The notes under the pieces are model-generated. The model was not told where the DNA came from. It was given only the letters and a program-made list of their open reading frames with translations, and did no database searches. A program made the position numbers and the translations under genes. Positions 1 to 4,948 of a DNA stretch of 5,405 bases are shown piece by piece (within the stretch, counting starts at the first letter, position 1; the number at the start of each line of letters is the position of its first letter). The stretch lies in IMG/VR virus record IMGVR_UViG_2609459845_000005; one strand, given 5' to 3'. Origin of the DNA: a virus (Duplodnaviria; Heunggongvirae; Uroviricota; Caudoviricetes).

Positions 1-477
1 CGTTGGCCTCAACACGATTTTACGTCACTTAAAAAACTCAGGCCGCAGTCGGTAACCTCGCGCATACAGCCGGGCAGTGACGTCATCGTCTGCGCGGAAA
101 TGGACGAACAGTGGGGCTATGTCGGGGCTAAATCGCGCCAGCGCTGGCTGTTTTACGCGTATGACAGGCTCCGGAAGACGGTTGTTGCGCACGTATTCGG
201 TGAACGCACTATGGCGACGCTGGGGCGTCTTATGAGCCTGCTGTCACCCTTTGACGTGGTGATATGGATGACGGATGGCTGGCCGCTGTATGAATCCCGC
301 CTGAAGGGAAAGCTGCACGTAATCAGCAAGCGATATACGCAGCGAATTGAGCGGCATAACCTGAATCTGAGGCAGCACCTGGCACGGCTGGGACGGAAGT
401 CGCTGTCGTTCTCAAAATCGGTGGAGCTGCATGACAAAGTCATCGGGCATTATCTGAACATAAAACACTATCAATAA
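1..477 (+). CDS. insB: IS1 InsB' transposase domain (5' partial; expressed as InsAB' fusion by -1 frameshift)
   Basis: Frame 1 is open from base 1 ([49 protein letters not shown]...HYLNIKHYQ*) and contains the track ORF 100..477. It matches IS1 InsB as recalled. Confidence 0.9.
2..55 (+). CDS. insA: IS1 InsA, 3' end only (5' partial)
   Basis: Frame 2 translates ...[17 protein letters not shown] with TAA at 53-55, which matches the InsA C-terminus from memory. Confidence 0.85.
31..37 (+). promoter_or_regulatory. IS1 programmed -1 ribosomal frameshift site (A6C slippery motif)
   Basis: AAAAAAC at 31-37 sits in the insA/insB' overlap within the context ttAAAAAACtc, the known IS1 frameshift window. 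Confidence 0.8.
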
Positions 478-557
478 GTTGGAGTCATTACCTCCAAATC
501 TGAATAATTAAGTTCAGCACTGTAAATAAAATTTAATCCTTAACTGGAGGTATATCT

Positions 558-1464: not shown

Positions 1465-1706
1465 CGACTTTTACCAGAGAGCAGTTAATAGCTCACGCAG
1501 AGGAGACTATTGAAGCACAGAGACTGTGCATACCGGGCACAATCGACCATGACATCATCCGCACATATAAGATGGATATTGCTGTTCTGGAAATCGCACT
1601 GGTATCGCTGGCAGCAGAGCCAGCCGGTAAATTGCATGAATACAAACCAGTGGGATATCAGCGTCTGGTCGATGAGTTAACCATGCTGGTAAAGCAGTTA
1701 ACCTAG
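1461..1706 (+). CDS. hypothetical small protein (81 aa), paralog of the preceding gene
   Basis: Track ORF. Shares the N-terminal MTTxT(K/R)E and the IAL(A/V)SL(E/A)AEP motif with the 55-aa ORF. Start overlaps the upstream stop (ATGA). Confidence 0.5.
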
Positions 1707-1801: not shown

Positions 1802-1885
1802 ATGACCTGGCCTGAAGCATTAACAACGGTAGGAATTGCGATGGCGGTGGCGCTGGTGGTGTATTCGATTTGCCGCTGGGGATAA
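1802..1885 (+). CDS. possible small hydrophobic peptide (27 aa, MTWPEALTTVGIAMAVALVVYSICRWG)
   Basis: ATG at 1802 is preceded by GGAGG at 1788-1792 and overlaps the stop of a 17-aa ORF (1752..1805) as ATGA. Coding status is uncertain because the ORF is so short. Confidence 0.2.
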   Translation: MTWPEALTTVGIAMAVALVVYSICRWG

Positions 1886-1892
1886 AAACGGT

Positions 1893-1920
1893 TTGCGGGA
1901 AAAGGAGAGTTAAGTAGAAT
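1893..1920 (+). promoter_or_regulatory. candidate promoter of the hok/mok mRNA
   Basis: -35-like TTGCGG at 1893-1898, 16-nt spacer, -10 TAGAAT at 1915-1920. The predicted start near 1927 is the beginning of the GGGUGCUUGAGGCU element, which resembles the 5' end of plasmid R1 hok mRNA as I recall it. Confidence 0.4.
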
Positions 1921-1979
1921 TGCAGCGGGTGCTTGAGGCTATCTGTCTCAGGCATGAACACCAAAAGGCAGATAGAGAA

Positions 1980-2047
1980 AAGCCCCAGTTAACATTACGC
2001 GTCCGGCAAGACGCTTAACATTAATCTGAGGCCATATCTATGCTCTA
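1980..2047 (-). ncRNA. sok: candidate Sok-type antisense RNA (approximate ends)
   Basis: Minus-strand promoter-like elements: -35 TTGCCT (plus 2078-2083), 17-nt spacer, -10 TAACCT (plus 2055-2060). The transcript would be antisense to the mok start region and carries an imperfect hairpin (GUUAA/UUAAC outer stem, GCGUC/GACGC inner stem) before a short U-run. Placement follows the known hok/sok architecture. Confidence 0.4.
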
Positions 2048-2252
2048 CACACGTAGGTTAGCCTCTTACGTGCCGAAAGGCAAGGAGAAGCAGGCTATGA
2101 AGCAGCAAAAGGCGATGCTAATCGCCCTGATCGTCATCTGTTTAACCGTCATTGTGACGGCACTGGTAACGAGGAAAGACCTCTGCGAGGTACGAATCCG
2201 AACCGGCCAGACGGAGGTCGCTGTCTTCACAGCTTACGAACCTGAGGAGTAA
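2040..2252 (+). CDS. mok: Mok-like reading frame (70 aa), in frame with and containing hok
   Basis: ATG at 2040 extends the Hok frame by 19 codons (MLYTRRLASYVPKGKEKQA-), with a GGAGG-type RBS within it just before the hok ATG. This is the same arrangement I recall for chromosomal mokC/hokC. Confidence 0.55.
   Translation: MLYTRRLASYVPKGKEKQAMKQQKAMLIALIVICLTVIVTALVTRKDLCEVRIRTGQTEVAVFTAYEPEE
2097..2252 (+). CDS. hokD: Hok-family type I toxin, HokD-like (51 aa)
   Basis: MKQQKAMLIALIVICLTVIVTALVTRKDLCEVRIRTGQTEVAVFTAYEPEE matches E. coli HokD (RelF) as I recall it: one TM helix plus the conserved C-terminal Hok region. AGGAGAAG RBS precedes the ATG. Confidence 0.9.
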   Translation: MKQQKAMLIALIVICLTVIVTALVTRKDLCEVRIRTGQTEVAVFTAYEPEE

Positions 2253-2320
2253 GAGACCTGGCGGGGGAGAAATCCCTCGCCACCTCTGATGTGTCAGGCA
2301 TCCTCAACGCACCCGCACTT

Positions 2321-2347
2321 AACCCGCTTCGGCGGGTTTTGTTTTTT
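2321..2347 (+). terminator. intrinsic terminator of hok mRNA
   Basis: aacccgc-UUCG-gcgggtt stem with a UUCG tetraloop, followed by ttttgtttttt. Confidence 0.7.
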
Positions 2348-2693: not shown

Positions 2694-3743
2694 GTGCGGG
2701 TATTACTTCGACCTGTTCTGGTACCGGAACTCGGGCTGGTGATCGTTAAGCCGGGCCGTGAATCCATGCCGGTATTCCACAATACCCGGGTACTGGTGGA
2801 GCCGGAACCGAAAAGCATGCGTAATCTGTCGTCCGGGGTCGTTCCTGCCGTTCGCCAGCCGCTGGCGGAGGATAAATCATTACTGCCATTTTTCAGCGAC
2901 GAACGAGTGATTCGTGCTGCTGGTGGCGCTGGCGCATTGTCTGACTGGTTACTGCGCCATGTTAAATCCTGCCAGTGGCCACACGGCGATTATCACCACA
3001 GTGAAACCGTCATTCACCGTTATGGTACCGGCGCAATGGTGTTGTGCTGGCACTGCGACAACCAGTTGCGTGACCAGACCTCCGAATCACTTGAGCAACT
3101 TGCTCACCAAAACCTGTCAGCATGGATGATTGACGTCATTCGTCACGCAATGAATGGCACACAGGAGCGTGAATTATCGCTGGCTGAATTATCCTGGTGG
3201 GCGGCCTGCAATCAGGTGGTGGATGCACTACCTGAGGCAGTAGCGCGTCGTTCGCTGGGATTACCAGCGGAAAAAATCCGCTCCGTATACCGTGAGAGTG
3301 ACATCGTACCGGGAGAACAGACAGCCATCAGCATACTGAAGCAGCGCACAAAAAATATTGCGCTGCCACTTCACGTCCACCAGCAACAAAATCCACCACA
3401 GGAAAAGACGGTGGTCAGCATTGCCGTTGATCCGGAGTCTCCGGAATCCTTCATGAAACGACCTAAACGTCGCCGCTGGGTTAACGAGAAATACACGCGC
3501 TGGGTGAAGACACAGCCGTGTGCGTGTTGTGGTAAGCCAGCCGACGATCCCCATCACCTGATTGGTCATGGTCAGGGCGGAATGGGGACAAAATCTCACG
3601 ATATTTTCACGCTACCGCTGTGTCGGGAGCATCACAACGAGCTTCATGCGGATCCGCTGGCGTTCGAAGAAAAGCATGGCTCTCAGGTTGATTTAATTTT
3701 TCGTTTTCTTGATCACGCCTTTGCAACCGGCGTGCTCGGGTAA
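2694..3743 (+). CDS. ydfU: YdfU-like prophage protein (DUF968 family), 349 aa, Cys/His-rich C-terminus
   Basis: GTG start at 2694, 1 nt after the upstream stop, with GGAGG at 2685-2689. Length and synteny (hokD-rem-ydfU-Q) match Qin ydfU as recalled. The C-terminus carries CACCGKPADDPHHLIGHG...CREHHNELH. Confidence 0.65.
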   Translation: MRVLLRPVLVPELGLVIVKPGRESMPVFHNTRVLVEPEPKSMRNLSSGVVPAVRQPLAEDKSLLPFFSDERVIRAAGGAGALSDWLLRHVKSCQWPHGDYHHSETVIHRYGTGAMVLCWHCDNQLRDQTSESLEQLAHQNLSAWMIDVIRHAMNGTQERELSLAELSWWAACNQVVDALPEAVARRSLGLPAEKIRSVYRESDIVPGEQTAISILKQRTKNIALPLHVHQQQNPPQEKTVVSIAVDPESPESFMKRPKRRRWVNEKYTRWVKTQPCACCGKPADDPHHLIGHGQGGMGTKSHDIFTLPLCREHHNELHADPLAFEEKHGSQVDLIFRFLDHAFATGVLG

Positions 3744-3755
3744 AAGAGGTTACTG

Positions 3756-4130
3756 ATGCGTATAGAGTTTGTTTTGCCTTACCCGCCGACGGTGAACACC
3801 TACTGGCGACGTCGTGGCAGCACATATTTTGTATCAAAAGCCGGTGAGCGTTATCGCCGGGCTGTGGCGCTTATTGTTCGCCAGCAGCGGCTGAAATTAA
3901 GCCTGTCCGGAAGGCTGGCGATAAAGATTATTGCCGCGCCACCGGATAAGCGCCGCCGTGACCTGGACAATATTCTGAAAGCGCCGCTGGATGCGCTGAC
4001 GCATGCGGGGTTGCTAATGGACGATGAGCAGTTTGATGAAATCAATATCGTTCGTGCTCAGCCAGTATCTGGTGGACGTCTGGGGGTGAAGATTTACCCC
4101 ATAATGCTTGCAGGGCAGGTCAAAAAATGA
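3756..4130 (+). CDS. rusA: RusA-family Holliday junction resolvase (124 aa)
   Basis: AAGAGG RBS at 3744-3749. LPYPPTVNTYWRRR, DKRRRDLDNILKA and SGGRLGVKI align with the RusA signature blocks (LPWPPSNNRYYR, DRRRRDLDN, KGGRL) as recalled. Confidence 0.85.
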   Translation: MRIEFVLPYPPTVNTYWRRRGSTYFVSKAGERYRRAVALIVRQQRLKLSLSGRLAIKIIAAPPDKRRRDLDNILKAPLDALTHAGLLMDDEQFDEINIVRAQPVSGGRLGVKIYPIMLAGQVKK

Positions 4131-4948
4131 AACTGGAAGATTTACCGAAATACTACTCCCCAAAATCCCCCGGCCTGACTGATGCATCGGCCTCAACGTC
4201 GAAAGATGCGCTGAGTATCACTGATGTGATGGCCGCGCAGGGCATGACACAGAATCGGGCTGGGATGGGGTTTTCTGCGTTCCTTGGGAAAATGGGCATT
4301 AGTATGAATGACAGAGAGCGGGCAACAGAATTGCTGACAGAATATGCACTCAGTCGGTGTGATCGCGTGGCGGCGTTAAGAAAACTCCCGGCAGAAATAA
4401 AACCGGCAGTGATGCGTATTATGGCTTCGTATGCGTTTGAAGATTATGCCCGTAGCGCAGCGAGCAAAAAACAGTGCCCCTGCTGTCACGGAAAAAAATT
4501 TATTGAAAGCGAGGTTTTTACAAACAAGATCCAGTATCCGGATGGTAAGCCGCCGGTATGGGCAAAGTGTACGAAAGGTGTGTATCCGTCTTACTGGGAA
4601 GAATGGAAAAAAGTCAGGGAGGTGGTAAAAGTTGCCTGTCCGGAGTGTGGCGGAAAGGGTGAGGTTTCCACCGCCTGTAAGGATTGCCGTGGGCGTGGTG
4701 TCGCCATTCATCGTGAAGAGTCGGTAAAACGTGGTATGCCTGTTATCAGAGACTGCCAGCGTTGTGGTGGTCGTGGCTGTGAAAGACTACCATCAACGGA
4801 GGCATTTAATGCCATATGCAAAGTGACGAGTGCTATCACGCTTGATACGTGGAAAAAATCAGTGAAACGCTTTTACGATACGTTGGTGGTTCGGTTTGAC
4901 ATTGAAGAGGCATGGGCGGAGCGGCAGTTAAAGAGGGTAACGCGATAG
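4127..4948 (+). CDS. putative late-gene antiterminator Q-like protein with four DnaJ-type zinc-finger repeats (273 aa)
   Basis: ATG overlaps the rusA stop (ATGA). It is the last gene before a promoter/terminator pair, as Q is in lambdoid phages. Contains CPCCHGKK, CPECGGKG, CKDCRGRG and CQRCGGRG (three perfect CxxCxGxG). Confidence 0.55.
   Translation: MKLEDLPKYYSPKSPGLTDASASTSKDALSITDVMAAQGMTQNRAGMGFSAFLGKMGISMNDRERATELLTEYALSRCDRVAALRKLPAEIKPAVMRIMASYAFEDYARSAASKKQCPCCHGKKFIESEVFTNKIQYPDGKPPVWAKCTKGVYPSYWEEWKKVREVVKVACPECGGKGEVSTACKDCRGRGVAIHREESVKRGMPVIRDCQRCGGRGCERLPSTEAFNAICKVTSAITLDTWKKSVKRFYDTLVVRFDIEEAWAERQLKRVTR

What the first reader, a model, noticed from the sequence alone, without database searches (positions are those of the whole stretch)
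1893..2347. Complete hok/mok/sok-type locus around a HokD-like toxin, in a different context from K-12 relBE-hokD
The toxin is recognisable as HokD, but here it has its own apparent promoter, an in-frame Mok-like extension, a minus-strand promoter positioned for a Sok-like antisense RNA, and a 5'/3' fold-back pair. GGGUGCUUGAGG at 1927-1938 is complementary to CCUCAACGCACCC at 2302-2314 with one bulge. In the canonical hok system such pairing keeps full-length mRNA translationally silent until 3' processing. The K-12 hokD copy is usually described as lacking its upstream regulatory region because it follows relE. This locus therefore looks like an intact, potentially active ancestor-type hokD module.
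Basis: partly seen in the sequence, partly recalled or inferred. Interest (0 to 1): 0.55.

Follow-up and report, generated by a model that had tools for sequence, protein, structure and literature searches.

The report
Intact prophage hok/mok/sok toxin-antitoxin locus
This is a complete, ordinary copy of the well-known hok/mok/sok RNA-controlled toxin module, sitting in a lambda-like prophage; it matches the already characterised hokW-sokW locus of Shiga-toxin phages and occurs in about 72% of complete E. coli genomes, so it is real but not new.

Summary
Window 1892-2347 holds a full hok/mok/sok type I toxin-antitoxin locus. It has a hok promoter, a 5' tac element (1927-1938) that pairs with a 3' fbi element (2302-2314; 12 bp, one bulge), and an anti-SD box that sequesters the mok SD. 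It also has an in-frame mok start (2040), a hok ORF identical to K-12 HokD (2097-2252), a minus-strand sok promoter, a 71-nt Sok candidate (2048->1978) and a terminator. Rfam sok scores 117 bits (gathering score 59). The fold is kept across 18 diverse hok mRNAs with compensatory changes. K-12 relBE-hokD shares sequence only from window 2083 onward and gives no Rfam sok hit.

The interpretation (intact, unlike K-12) is right, but the locus is not novel. It is 93.7% identical to mokW/hokW/sokW, annotated in phage 933W. That locus was shown experimentally in prophage Sp5 to be a working type I TA, by mutating a sok -10 that is identical here. The full-length form is in 3,908 of 5,426 complete E. 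coli genomes. The K-12 relE-hokD junction is in 1,173.

One side observation may be new: a hypervariable patch (2033-2054) covering the Sok 5' tail. It often differs between copies in the same genome.

The parts
1892..1897 (+). hok promoter -35 (TTTGCG)
   Evidence: It lies 17 nt upstream of the -10. TTTGCG/TTGGCG/TTGGCA-type hexamers recur at this column in copies with otherwise different upstream DNA. This is inferred, not mapped.
1915..1920 (+). hok promoter -10 (TAGAAT)
   Evidence: The conservation footprint begins here. A TAnnnT hexamer is kept 6 nt before the tac G in divergent contexts, as TAGAAT, TACAAT, TAAAAT or TAAGAT.
1927..2346 (+). full-length hok mRNA (about 420 nt; ends predicted)
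   Evidence: The Rfam sok model starts at 1927. The terminator is at 2321-2338 plus a T-run. The fold has z = -7.7. Projected onto 18 diverse hok mRNAs, 86.5% of cells pair against 37-45% in slid controls, and 42 pairs show compensatory changes.
1927..1938 (+). tac (translational activator) element at the 5' end of the mRNA
   Evidence: It pairs with 2302-2314 in the full-length MFE fold. When the 3' end is removed it refolds onto 1946-1955. It is nearly invariant in 96 loci.
1946..1955 (+). local partner of tac (metastable / 5' hairpin)
   Evidence: This is the MFE pairing of tac in RNAs that end at 2285-2300. The R1 control behaves the same way.
1981..1988 (+). ucb / anti-SD box (AGCCCCAG)
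   Evidence: It pairs with the mok SD region 2026-2032 with probability about 1. AGCCCC is invariant from this locus through hokC to R1 hok. Helix 5 is 91% paired, with 6 covarying pairs.
2028..2031 (+). mok Shine-Dalgarno (GAGG)
   Evidence: It lies 8 nt upstream of ATG 2040 and is invariant in the alignments. It is sequestered in the full-length fold.
2040..2252 (+). mok ORF (70 aa, in frame with hok)
   Evidence: The ATG is invariant in all full-length copies. mokW is annotated with the same layout in 933W.
1978..2048 (-). Sok antisense RNA candidate (71 nt)
   Evidence: The coordinates were transferred from the sokW misc_RNA of AF125520 through alignment A1. It folds as a 15-nt free 5' tail, a long hairpin and UUUU (-28.6 kcal/mol, z = -5.4). 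The transcript itself was not observed here.
2055..2060 (-). sok promoter -10 (TAACCT on the minus strand)
   Evidence: It is nearly invariant. It is identical to the 933W/Sp5 sequence TAGGTTA. The mutagenic primers YO-421/422 of PMC8621323 replace that sequence in the 'pro-less' construct, which loses antitoxin activity. That reading comes from my analysis of the primer sequences.
2078..2083 (-). sok promoter -35 (TTGCCT on the minus strand)
   Evidence: It is invariant in 70 full-length copies, with a 17-nt spacer to the -10.
2084..2087 (+). hok Shine-Dalgarno (GGAG)
   Evidence: CAAGGAG is conserved through to R1. Homology with K-12 hokD begins at 2083.
2097..2252 (+). hok ORF (51 aa, identical to K-12 HokD)
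   Evidence: Pfam HOK_GEF, E 1.2e-23. Identical to K-12 HokD and different from HokW at 4 C-terminal residues.
2259..2282 (+). stable 3'-UTR hairpin (10 bp, GAAA loop), the likely 3' end of the processed mRNA
   Evidence: It is present in all folds. Helix 19 has 5 covarying pairs. It is analogous to the last stem-loop of truncated R1 hok mRNA (PMC9841398). Its role is inferred.
2302..2314 (+). fbi (fold-back inhibition) element
   Evidence: It pairs with tac. Helix 1 is 93.5% paired across 18 diverse mRNAs, and column pair 4/427 shows UA x14, CG x3, UG x1.
2321..2347 (+). intrinsic terminator of hok mRNA
   Evidence: A 7-bp stem with 5 GC pairs, followed by TTTTGTTTTTT. It is shared with K-12 hokD, O157 and mEp460 but not with 933W.

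Best explanation
Window 1892-2347 is a complete hok/mok/sok type I toxin-antitoxin module. It sits in the nin/Q region of a lambda-like prophage that has been damaged by an IS1 insertion. It is an allele of the hokW-sokW locus of Shiga-toxin phages, and its toxin is identical to K-12 HokD.

Proposed mechanism, by homology with plasmid R1 hok/sok and Sp5 hokW-sokW:
1. A weak constitutive promoter makes a stable mRNA of about 420 nt.
2. The 5' tac element of that mRNA is clamped to the 3' fbi element, and an anti-SD box hides the mok ribosome-binding site. The full-length RNA is therefore neither translated nor bound by Sok.
3. Slow 3' trimming removes the terminator and the fbi.
4. The 5' end refolds, exposing the mok start region.
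5. The 71-nt Sok RNA, unstable and constitutively made from the opposite strand, pairs with that region through its free 5' tail. This blocks mok translation, and with it the coupled hok translation, and triggers RNase III cleavage.
6. If Sok synthesis stops, through loss of the element, a transcription block or prophage induction, the stored mRNA is translated and the membrane toxin HokD is made.

Shown here: sequence homology, every sequence element, the full-length fold, conservation of that fold with covariation, and the contrast with K-12.
Inferred: transcript ends, 3' processing, the open conformation, Sok expression, and in vivo activity.
For: - Rfam sok RF01794 matches 1927-2102 at 117 bits (gathering score 59). 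Pfam HOK_GEF matches the ORF.
- The full-length MFE fold contains tac/fbi and anti-SD/mok-SD pairing, with z = -7.7.
- Removing the fbi lowers the cost of the canonical tac/ucb open state from +16.5 to +5.0-5.8 kcal/mol. The experimentally characterised R1-type mRNA behaves alike, falling from +11.6 to +3.2.
- The fold projected onto 18 hok mRNAs (E. coli, Kluyvera, Photorhabdus, Pantoea, Erwinia, R1 type) gives 86.5% paired cells against 37-45% in slid controls. 42 pairs have compensatory changes against 11-19, and 0 of 500 shuffles reach the observed values for four of the five measures (5 of 500 for the count of further pair types).
- tac position 4 covaries with the fbi: U-A changes to C-G.
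- The locus is 93.7% identical to the 933W locus annotated as mokW/hokW/sokW.
- The sok -10, its -35 and the spacing between them are conserved.
- The Sok candidate has the canonical shape of a free tail, a hairpin and a U-tract.
- In Sp5, HokW is toxic and sokW expressed from its own promoter neutralises it. Promoter mutations abolish that protection, and both hokW mRNA and sokW RNA were probed by northern blot, with sokW RNA reported to fall after mitomycin C (PMC8621323).
- A recent screen used HokD as a toxic positive control, and HokD was not among the three non-toxic sequences (bioRxiv 10.1101/2025.08.07.668861).
- Flanking genes place the locus in a lambdoid prophage: DUF968, RusA and the Q antiterminator downstream, and small phage ORFs upstream.
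Against: - No transcript data exist for this window. Both promoters are weak by consensus, and the generic scan did not call them.
- MFE folding of 3'-shortened RNAs does not open the mok SD on its own. The R1 control does not either.
[quoted passage not shown] An intact sequence therefore does not guarantee a phenotype.
- The host prophage is damaged. IS1 ends at 492, and the upstream gene carries a nonsense mutation at 1705. A lysis-assisting role like that of hokW may therefore be moot here.
Confidence: 0.9

Rival explanations
1. The locus has an intact sequence but is physiologically silent. It would be a hok/sok copy carried along with a decaying prophage that never releases toxin under natural conditions. 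Its conservation would reflect recent spread by phages rather than selection for function in this host.
For: Native chromosomal hokA, hokB and hokC loci failed to give post-segregational killing or rifampicin activation. Faridani et al. describe the K-12 hok/sok loci as inactive. The surrounding prophage shows decay, with IS1 at 1-492 and a nonsense mutation at 1705. Most copies are more than 93% identical, so little time has passed for decay.
Against: Conservation is not uniform. A sharp footprint covers exactly the functional elements, while a patch between them and the flanks vary freely. Compensatory changes preserve the helices in distant genera. The close ortholog hokW-sokW is functional in a lysogen.
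Confidence: 0.2
2. The module works mainly as a phage lysis or release helper, or as an abortive-infection defence, and not as an addiction (post-segregational killing) element. In this view, induction or superinfection shuts off Sok and HokD accelerates host death.
For: Deleting hokW-sokW from Sp5 halves phage release after mitomycin C, and HokW accumulates in a RecA-dependent way (PMC8621323). R1 hok/sok excludes phage T4 (cited in PMC10305079). hok genes are about four-fold enriched in prophages. The locus always sits in the early-to-late nin/Q region.
Against: This concerns biological role, not molecular mechanism, and it is compatible with the best explanation. The prophage here is IS1-disrupted, so phage release may not be possible. 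No enrichment of hok near defence systems was found.
Confidence: 0.35
3. The regulatory features are chance resemblances around a bare HokD ORF, as in K-12, where only the toxin gene survives.
For: Neither promoter passes a generic consensus scan.
Against: A full-length Rfam hit at twice the gathering score. 170 nt of leader that is 93-100% identical to annotated sok-bearing loci. Structure covariation. The true bare copy, K-12, gives no Rfam hit and aligns only from 2083.
Confidence: 0.01

Closest known systems
mokW/hokW/sokW of Stx2 phage 933W and Sakai prophage Sp5 (AF125520; Takada et al. 2021, PMC8621323)
   Same: The two are 93.7% identical over window 1881-2324. They share the promoter, tac, anti-SD box, in-frame mok, sok -35 and -10, extended Sok hairpin and fbi. 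Both belong to lambdoid prophages.
   Different: The toxin C-terminus differs at 4 residues (...FTAYEPEE here...FVDYESEK in HokW). 6 of the 16 Sok 5'-tail positions differ. 933W diverges after the fbi and lacks this terminator. In 933W the locus lies near the end of the phage record, next to a YgiW-like gene, whereas here it lies upstream of DUF968, RusA and Q.
K-12 relB-relE-hokD (relF) in the Qin prophage
   Same: The HokD protein is identical, and the hok SD, ORF, 3' UTR, fbi and terminator are about 98% identical. The downstream prophage genes are the same (DUF968, then Q).
   Different: K-12 has relE directly upstream. It lacks the hok promoter, tac, anti-SD box, mok start, Sok and the sok -10, with the breakpoint at window 2083, and it gives no Rfam sok hit. 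The K-12 junction is in 1,173 of 5,426 genomes and the full-length form in 3,908.
hok/sok (parB) of plasmid R1, the mechanistic paradigm
   Same: Shared elements are tac (G[G]GCGCUUGAGG-type), the AGCCCC anti-SD box, the mok SD and ATG, CAAGGAG as the hok SD, the GCUUACGAA motif, and an fbi complementary to tac. Folding of the full-length and truncated forms behaves the same way.
   Different: The R1 Hok protein is only distantly similar (HokW is 44% identical to Hok). Translating the R1-type sequence printed, mok reads in a different frame from hok; here, as in mokW and mokC, it is in frame. This leader carries an extra stem of about 17 nt at the tip of the Sok/target hairpin. R1 hok/sok is plasmid-borne and proven for post-segregational killing.
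chromosomal hokC/mokC/sokC (gef)
   Same: The tac is identical, the fbi is similar (with a G-U pair), mok is in frame, and the Rfam sok score is 122 bits.
   Different: hokC lies at a fixed chromosomal site between nhaA and dnaJ, not in a prophage. Its CDS is 85% identical. Its leader is shorter and lacks the hairpin-tip insert.

Membership tests
[quoted passage not shown] | Small hydrophobic Hok/Gef-family toxin ORF | tested here: met
   PF01848 at E 1.2e-23, 82.9 bits against a cut-off of 22. Identical to HokD.
[quoted passage not shown] | hok mRNA leader homologous to the family covariance model | tested here: met
   RF01794 matched end to end (model positions 1-157) at 117.1 bits against a gathering score of 59.
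[quoted passage not shown] | Overlapping mok reading frame with its own SD, starting upstream of hok | tested here: met
   ATG 2040 with GAGG 8 nt upstream. The ORF is open through to the hok stop, and the ATG is invariant in full-length copies.
[quoted passage not shown] | Long-range tac/fbi pairing that closes the full-length mRNA | tested here: met
   12 bp plus one bulge in the MFE fold. 93.5% paired over 18 diverse mRNAs, with one covarying pair. The position is conserved in almost all of 96 loci.
[quoted passage not shown] | [quoted passage not shown] | tested here: met
   1982-1988 pairs with 2026-2032 at probability about 1. Helix 5 has 6 covarying pairs.
[quoted passage not shown] | Refolding to a translatable, Sok-accessible open form after 3' processing | tested here: inconclusive
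   The MFE of truncated RNAs keeps the SD closed. The forced open form costs +5-6 kcal/mol against +16.5 in the full-length RNA. The R1 control gives the same qualitative result (+3.2 against +11.6), so the method cannot decide.
[quoted passage not shown] | Convergent promoter and terminator for a short antisense Sok RNA covering the mok start | tested here: met
   -35 TTGCCT, a 17-nt spacer, -10 TAACCT, and a 71-nt RNA with a free 5' tail, hairpin and U-tract. Identical to the sokW promoter region that was mutated experimentally.
[quoted passage not shown] | Sok RNA is actually made, is unstable, and neutralises the toxin; the toxin kills when Sok is lost | not testable with these tools
   Shown only for the ortholog hokW-sokW (PMC8621323), and for HokD overexpression as a toxic control.
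K-12-type relBEF (relB-relE-hokD) operon | hokD immediately downstream of relE, with no hok leader | tested here: not met
   The upstream DNA is phage ORFs plus a 170-nt hok leader. K-12 homology starts only at 2083, and no relE-like ORF appears in the ORF list.

The most novel reading that the evidence does not exclude
The 22-nt patch at 2033-2054 covers the single-stranded 5' tail of Sok, its target around the mok start, and the sok discriminator. It is hypervariable, while everything around it is nearly invariant, and copies in the same genome usually carry different versions. This could mean diversifying selection for mutually orthogonal Sok/hok pairs. Each of several co-resident lambdoid prophages (up to 10 matching places per genome) would then keep its own private antitoxin, much as the incompatibility loops of plasmid antisense RNAs do. 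The latest Hok survey states that it did not analyse the Sok, Mok or mRNA elements.
Probability: 0.25. Interest if true: 0.5.

Novelty: already known. Interest (0 to 1): 0.1.

Why it matters
It matters little as a discovery. The locus type was annotated in phage 933W, has since been tested experimentally, is catalogued by Rfam, Pfam and RefSeq, and is present in most E. coli genomes.

It is a useful reminder that the K-12 'hokD' is the degenerate minority form of a widespread, intact prophage module.

The side observation could make one question testable: how many near-identical RNA-controlled toxin modules can coexist in one cell without cross-neutralising? That hypothesis rests on the hypervariable Sok tail, and it remains untested.

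Tried and rejected
1. The generic sigma-70 scan found only a plus-strand TTAACA/TATGCT site at 2015-2044 and neither family promoter. I judged that hit to be chance (1 found against 0.7 expected) and relied on comparative conservation instead.

2. I expected the MFE of 3'-shortened mRNA to show the open, translatable conformation. It did not. The R1 positive control fails in the same way, so I treat this as a limit of the method and not as evidence against the locus.

3. The Rfam isrK (27 bits against a gathering score of 50) and ceN48 hits are below threshold and I did not pursue them.

4. I looked for the exact source genome. No complete E. coli genome holds the whole window at 99% or better; the best covers 91% at 96.8%. 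The window is a mosaic or comes from a genome outside that set.

5. A literature search using the term 'hok/sok' was rejected by the tool's syntax. Two other searches found no description of the hypervariable Sok tail, but those searches were not exhaustive.

Full report
**1. What is in the window.** The 5.4-kb window is part of a lambda-like prophage.
- Positions 1-492 are the end of an IS1 element: the IS1 transposase domain lies at 100-477, and all non-IS matches in other genomes begin at 493.
- Small phage ORFs follow.
- Downstream of the finding lie a DUF968 protein (2694-3743), a RusA resolvase (3756-4130) and a Q antiterminator (4127-4948).
- Many E. coli prophages show the same gene order.

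**2. Check of the observation.**
- ORF 2097-2252 is a Hok/Gef toxin (Pfam E 1.2e-23). It is residue-for-residue identical to K-12 HokD.
- An in-frame ATG at 2040, preceded by GAGG, gives a 70-aa Mok-type ORF.
- The Rfam sok/hok-leader model matches 1927-2102 end to end at 117 bits, twice its gathering score.
- Folding the predicted 420-nt mRNA (1927-2346) gives -173.1 kcal/mol with z = -7.7.
- In the same fold the mok SD (GAGG, 2028-2031) is bound by the AGCCCCAG box at 1981-1988, with pairing probability about 1.
- A terminator follows at 2321-2338.

**3. Promoters.** The generic scan missed both promoters, because each has one hexamer with only 3 of 6 consensus matches. Comparative data support them.
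- Across 70 distinct full-length copies, conservation begins abruptly at TAGAAT (1915-1920), 6 nt before the first tac G. A TAnnnT hexamer stays at that spot even where the upstream DNA is unrelated.
- On the minus strand, TTGCCT (2083->2078) is invariant and TAACCT (2060->2055) nearly so, with a 17-nt spacer between them.

**4. The antisense RNA.** I transferred the sokW coordinates from the 933W record through alignment A1. This gives a 71-nt RNA running from 2048 to 1978. It folds into a 15-nt single-stranded 5' tail, a long hairpin and a U-tract (z = -5.4), which is the canonical Sok shape. Compared with hokC and R1, the hairpin carries an extra stem of about 17 nt at its tip. A minority of prophage copies lack that insert.

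**5. Is the structure more than chance?**
- I collected 133 further loci from species-representative genomes and from viral contigs.
- tac is almost invariant. A complementary fbi lies 45-50 nt past the stop codon in almost all of 96 distinct sequences, with variation mainly at the bulge.
- In the Photorhabdus and Pantoea copies, tac position 4 changes U to C and the fbi changes A to G. One Erwinia copy shows the U-G intermediate.
- I projected this window's full-length fold onto an 18-sequence alignment spanning hokD/W, hokC, Kluyvera, Photorhabdus, Pantoea, Erwinia, Kalamiella and R1 types. 86.5% of cells pair, against 37-45% when partners are slid by 1-3 columns. 42 pairs have changes on both sides, against 11-19. 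For four of the five measures, 0 of 500 shuffles reach the observed value; for the count of further pair types, 5 of 500 do.
- One caveat applies. The structure was derived from one member of the alignment, which favours it over the slid versions. The covariation counts do not depend on that.

**6. The conformational switch.**
- Removing the 3' end (RNAs ending at 2285-2300) moves tac onto 1946-1955, a local hairpin. The MFE still keeps the mok SD closed.
- I ran the experimentally characterised R1-type mRNA as a control. It behaves the same way: tac/fbi forms in the 398-nt form, and the local hairpin forms with the SD still closed in the 361-nt form.
- Forcing the canonical tac/ucb pairing costs +11.6 kcal/mol in the full-length R1 form and +3.2 in the truncated form. 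For this window the costs are +16.5 and +5.0-5.8.
- Loss of the fbi therefore lowers the barrier by about 11 kcal/mol here. Thermodynamic folding alone cannot show the open state, even for R1.

**7. Contrast with K-12.**
- K-12-type genomes match only query positions 204-467, which is window 2083-2346.
- In alignment A1 the K-12 sequence upstream of AGGAGAAGCAGGCTATG is the end of relE and is unrelated to the window.
- The K-12 locus gives no Rfam sok hit, whereas the 933W, O157 and hokC loci do.
- K-12, mEp460 and the window share the downstream neighbourhood, so K-12 looks like the derived state.
- The full-length form is in 3,908 of 5,426 complete E. coli genomes, with a median of 2 matching places (full-length or partial) and a maximum of 10 per genome that has any. 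The relE-hokD junction is in 1,173.

**8. Comparison with what is known.**
- The locus is 93.7% identical over 1881-2324 to the locus of Stx2 phage 933W. That record annotates mokW, hokW and a SokW antisense RNA.
- Takada et al. (PMC8621323) studied the same locus in prophage Sp5. HokW is toxic, and sokW expressed from its own promoter neutralises it.
- Mutating the sok promoter abolishes that protection, and sokW supplied in trans partly restores growth. RNase III and Hfq contribute.
- Mitomycin C lowers sokW RNA and raises HokW. Deleting the locus halves phage release.
- Their mutagenic primers replace TAGGTTA, the sequence found at window 2054-2060 (this is my reading of the primers).
- The R1 mechanism (tac/fbi, ucb, 3' maturation, Sok and RNase III) is summarised in PMC9841398.
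- A recent survey reports that hok is enriched about four-fold in prophages and used HokD as a toxic control.

**9. Verdict.** The finding is real and correctly interpreted, but it is an ordinary, already described kind of locus. I rate it 'already known', with interest 0.1. Expression itself remains untested for this copy.

**10. Noticed in passing.**
- The patch 2033-2054, between the invariant mok SD and the sok -10, has a mean column entropy of 0.715 bits. That compares with 0.016-0.14 for neighbouring elements and 0.064 for hok third-codon positions. It has at least 15 variants.
- Three co-resident copies in E. coli ECMA0423 and three in S. flexneri SFBU1023 all differ there. Two contigs from one IMG genome were identical.
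- This could reflect selection for Sok specificity or simply relaxed constraint. Most other positions are structurally constrained, so there is no clean neutral benchmark.
- Other passing observations (a nonsense mutation, a conserved small ORF, the editing-site codon, the isrK sub-threshold hit, and the IS1 end) are listed separately.

Noticed in passing
window 2033-2054: A hypervariable patch lies between the invariant mok SD and the sok -10. It covers Sok nucleotides 1-16 (the free 5' tail) and mok codons 2-5. Its mean column entropy is 0.715 bits, against 0.02-0.14 for the flanking elements and 0.064 for hok third-codon positions, and it has at least 15 variants. Co-resident copies usually differ there (L008/L009/L016; L011/L013/L017). 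This may be a Sok specificity determinant or simply an unconstrained stretch.
   Followed up: partly
window 1704-1706 (ORF 1461-1706): The upstream phage gene carries a nonsense mutation, TGG to TAG (G to A at 1705), compared with the otherwise identical 114-aa gene WP_000206826.1 in E. coli CREC-U1. It is truncated to 81 aa here.
   Followed up: yes
window 1802-1885: A 27-aa hydrophobic small ORF (MTWPEALTTVGIAMAVALVVYSICRWG) overlaps the stop of the upstream gene (ATGA) and ends 7 nt before the hok -35. It is conserved in CREC-U1, O157 F6294 and 933W but is not annotated in the records of those three loci. It is possibly a small membrane protein.
   Followed up: partly
window 1-492: This is the end of an IS1 element (transposase domain 100-477; terminal sequence ...GGAGTCATTACC ends at 492). 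It is inserted into the prophage early region. Related prophages match only from 493 onward, so this prophage is disrupted.
   Followed up: partly
window 2235-2237 (GCTTACGAA, 2231-2239): The Tyr47 codon TAC sits in the conserved GCUUACGAA motif, which is invariant from hokD to R1 hok. The literature reports low-level A-to-I editing (Tyr to Cys) of K-12 hokD mRNA at this cysteine-46-equivalent position (6% edited; PMC12214031). The sequence here is identical to K-12.
   Followed up: partly
window 2261-2342: A sub-threshold Rfam match of the hok 3' UTR (hairpin, fbi and terminator) to the Salmonella prophage sRNA family isrK: 27.2 bits against a gathering score of 50, E 0.0064. It could be chance, or it could mean that isrK descends from a hok 3' end.
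   Followed up: no
L001 4017-4409 (E. coli CREC-U1) versus window about 2325-2350: The closest genome copy is 100% identical across the locus. It carries an extra insert of about 665 bp with a 130-aa hypothetical gene just downstream of hokD, which this window lacks. In 933W a YgiW/YdeI-like gene follows hokW, and that locus lacks the window's terminator. The 3' boundary of the module is therefore a recombination hot spot.
   Followed up: partly
L077, L081, L088, L090, L118, L128, L138 (viral contigs): A short-leader variant of the hokD-type locus has 147 nt between tac and the hok ATG, instead of 169-170 nt. It lacks the extra stem at the tip of the Sok/target hairpin and so resembles hokC and the Rfam consensus.
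   Followed up: partly
L021, L026, L059 and hit H34: HokD-type sequences appear on short contigs labelled Acinetobacter idrijaensis, Xanthomonas pisi and a Candidatus Scatousia MAG, and in a record labelled as an Actinobacillus pleuropneumoniae phage (PP818812, 97.4% identical). These are most likely E. coli contamination or mislabelling and not real host range.
   Followed up: no
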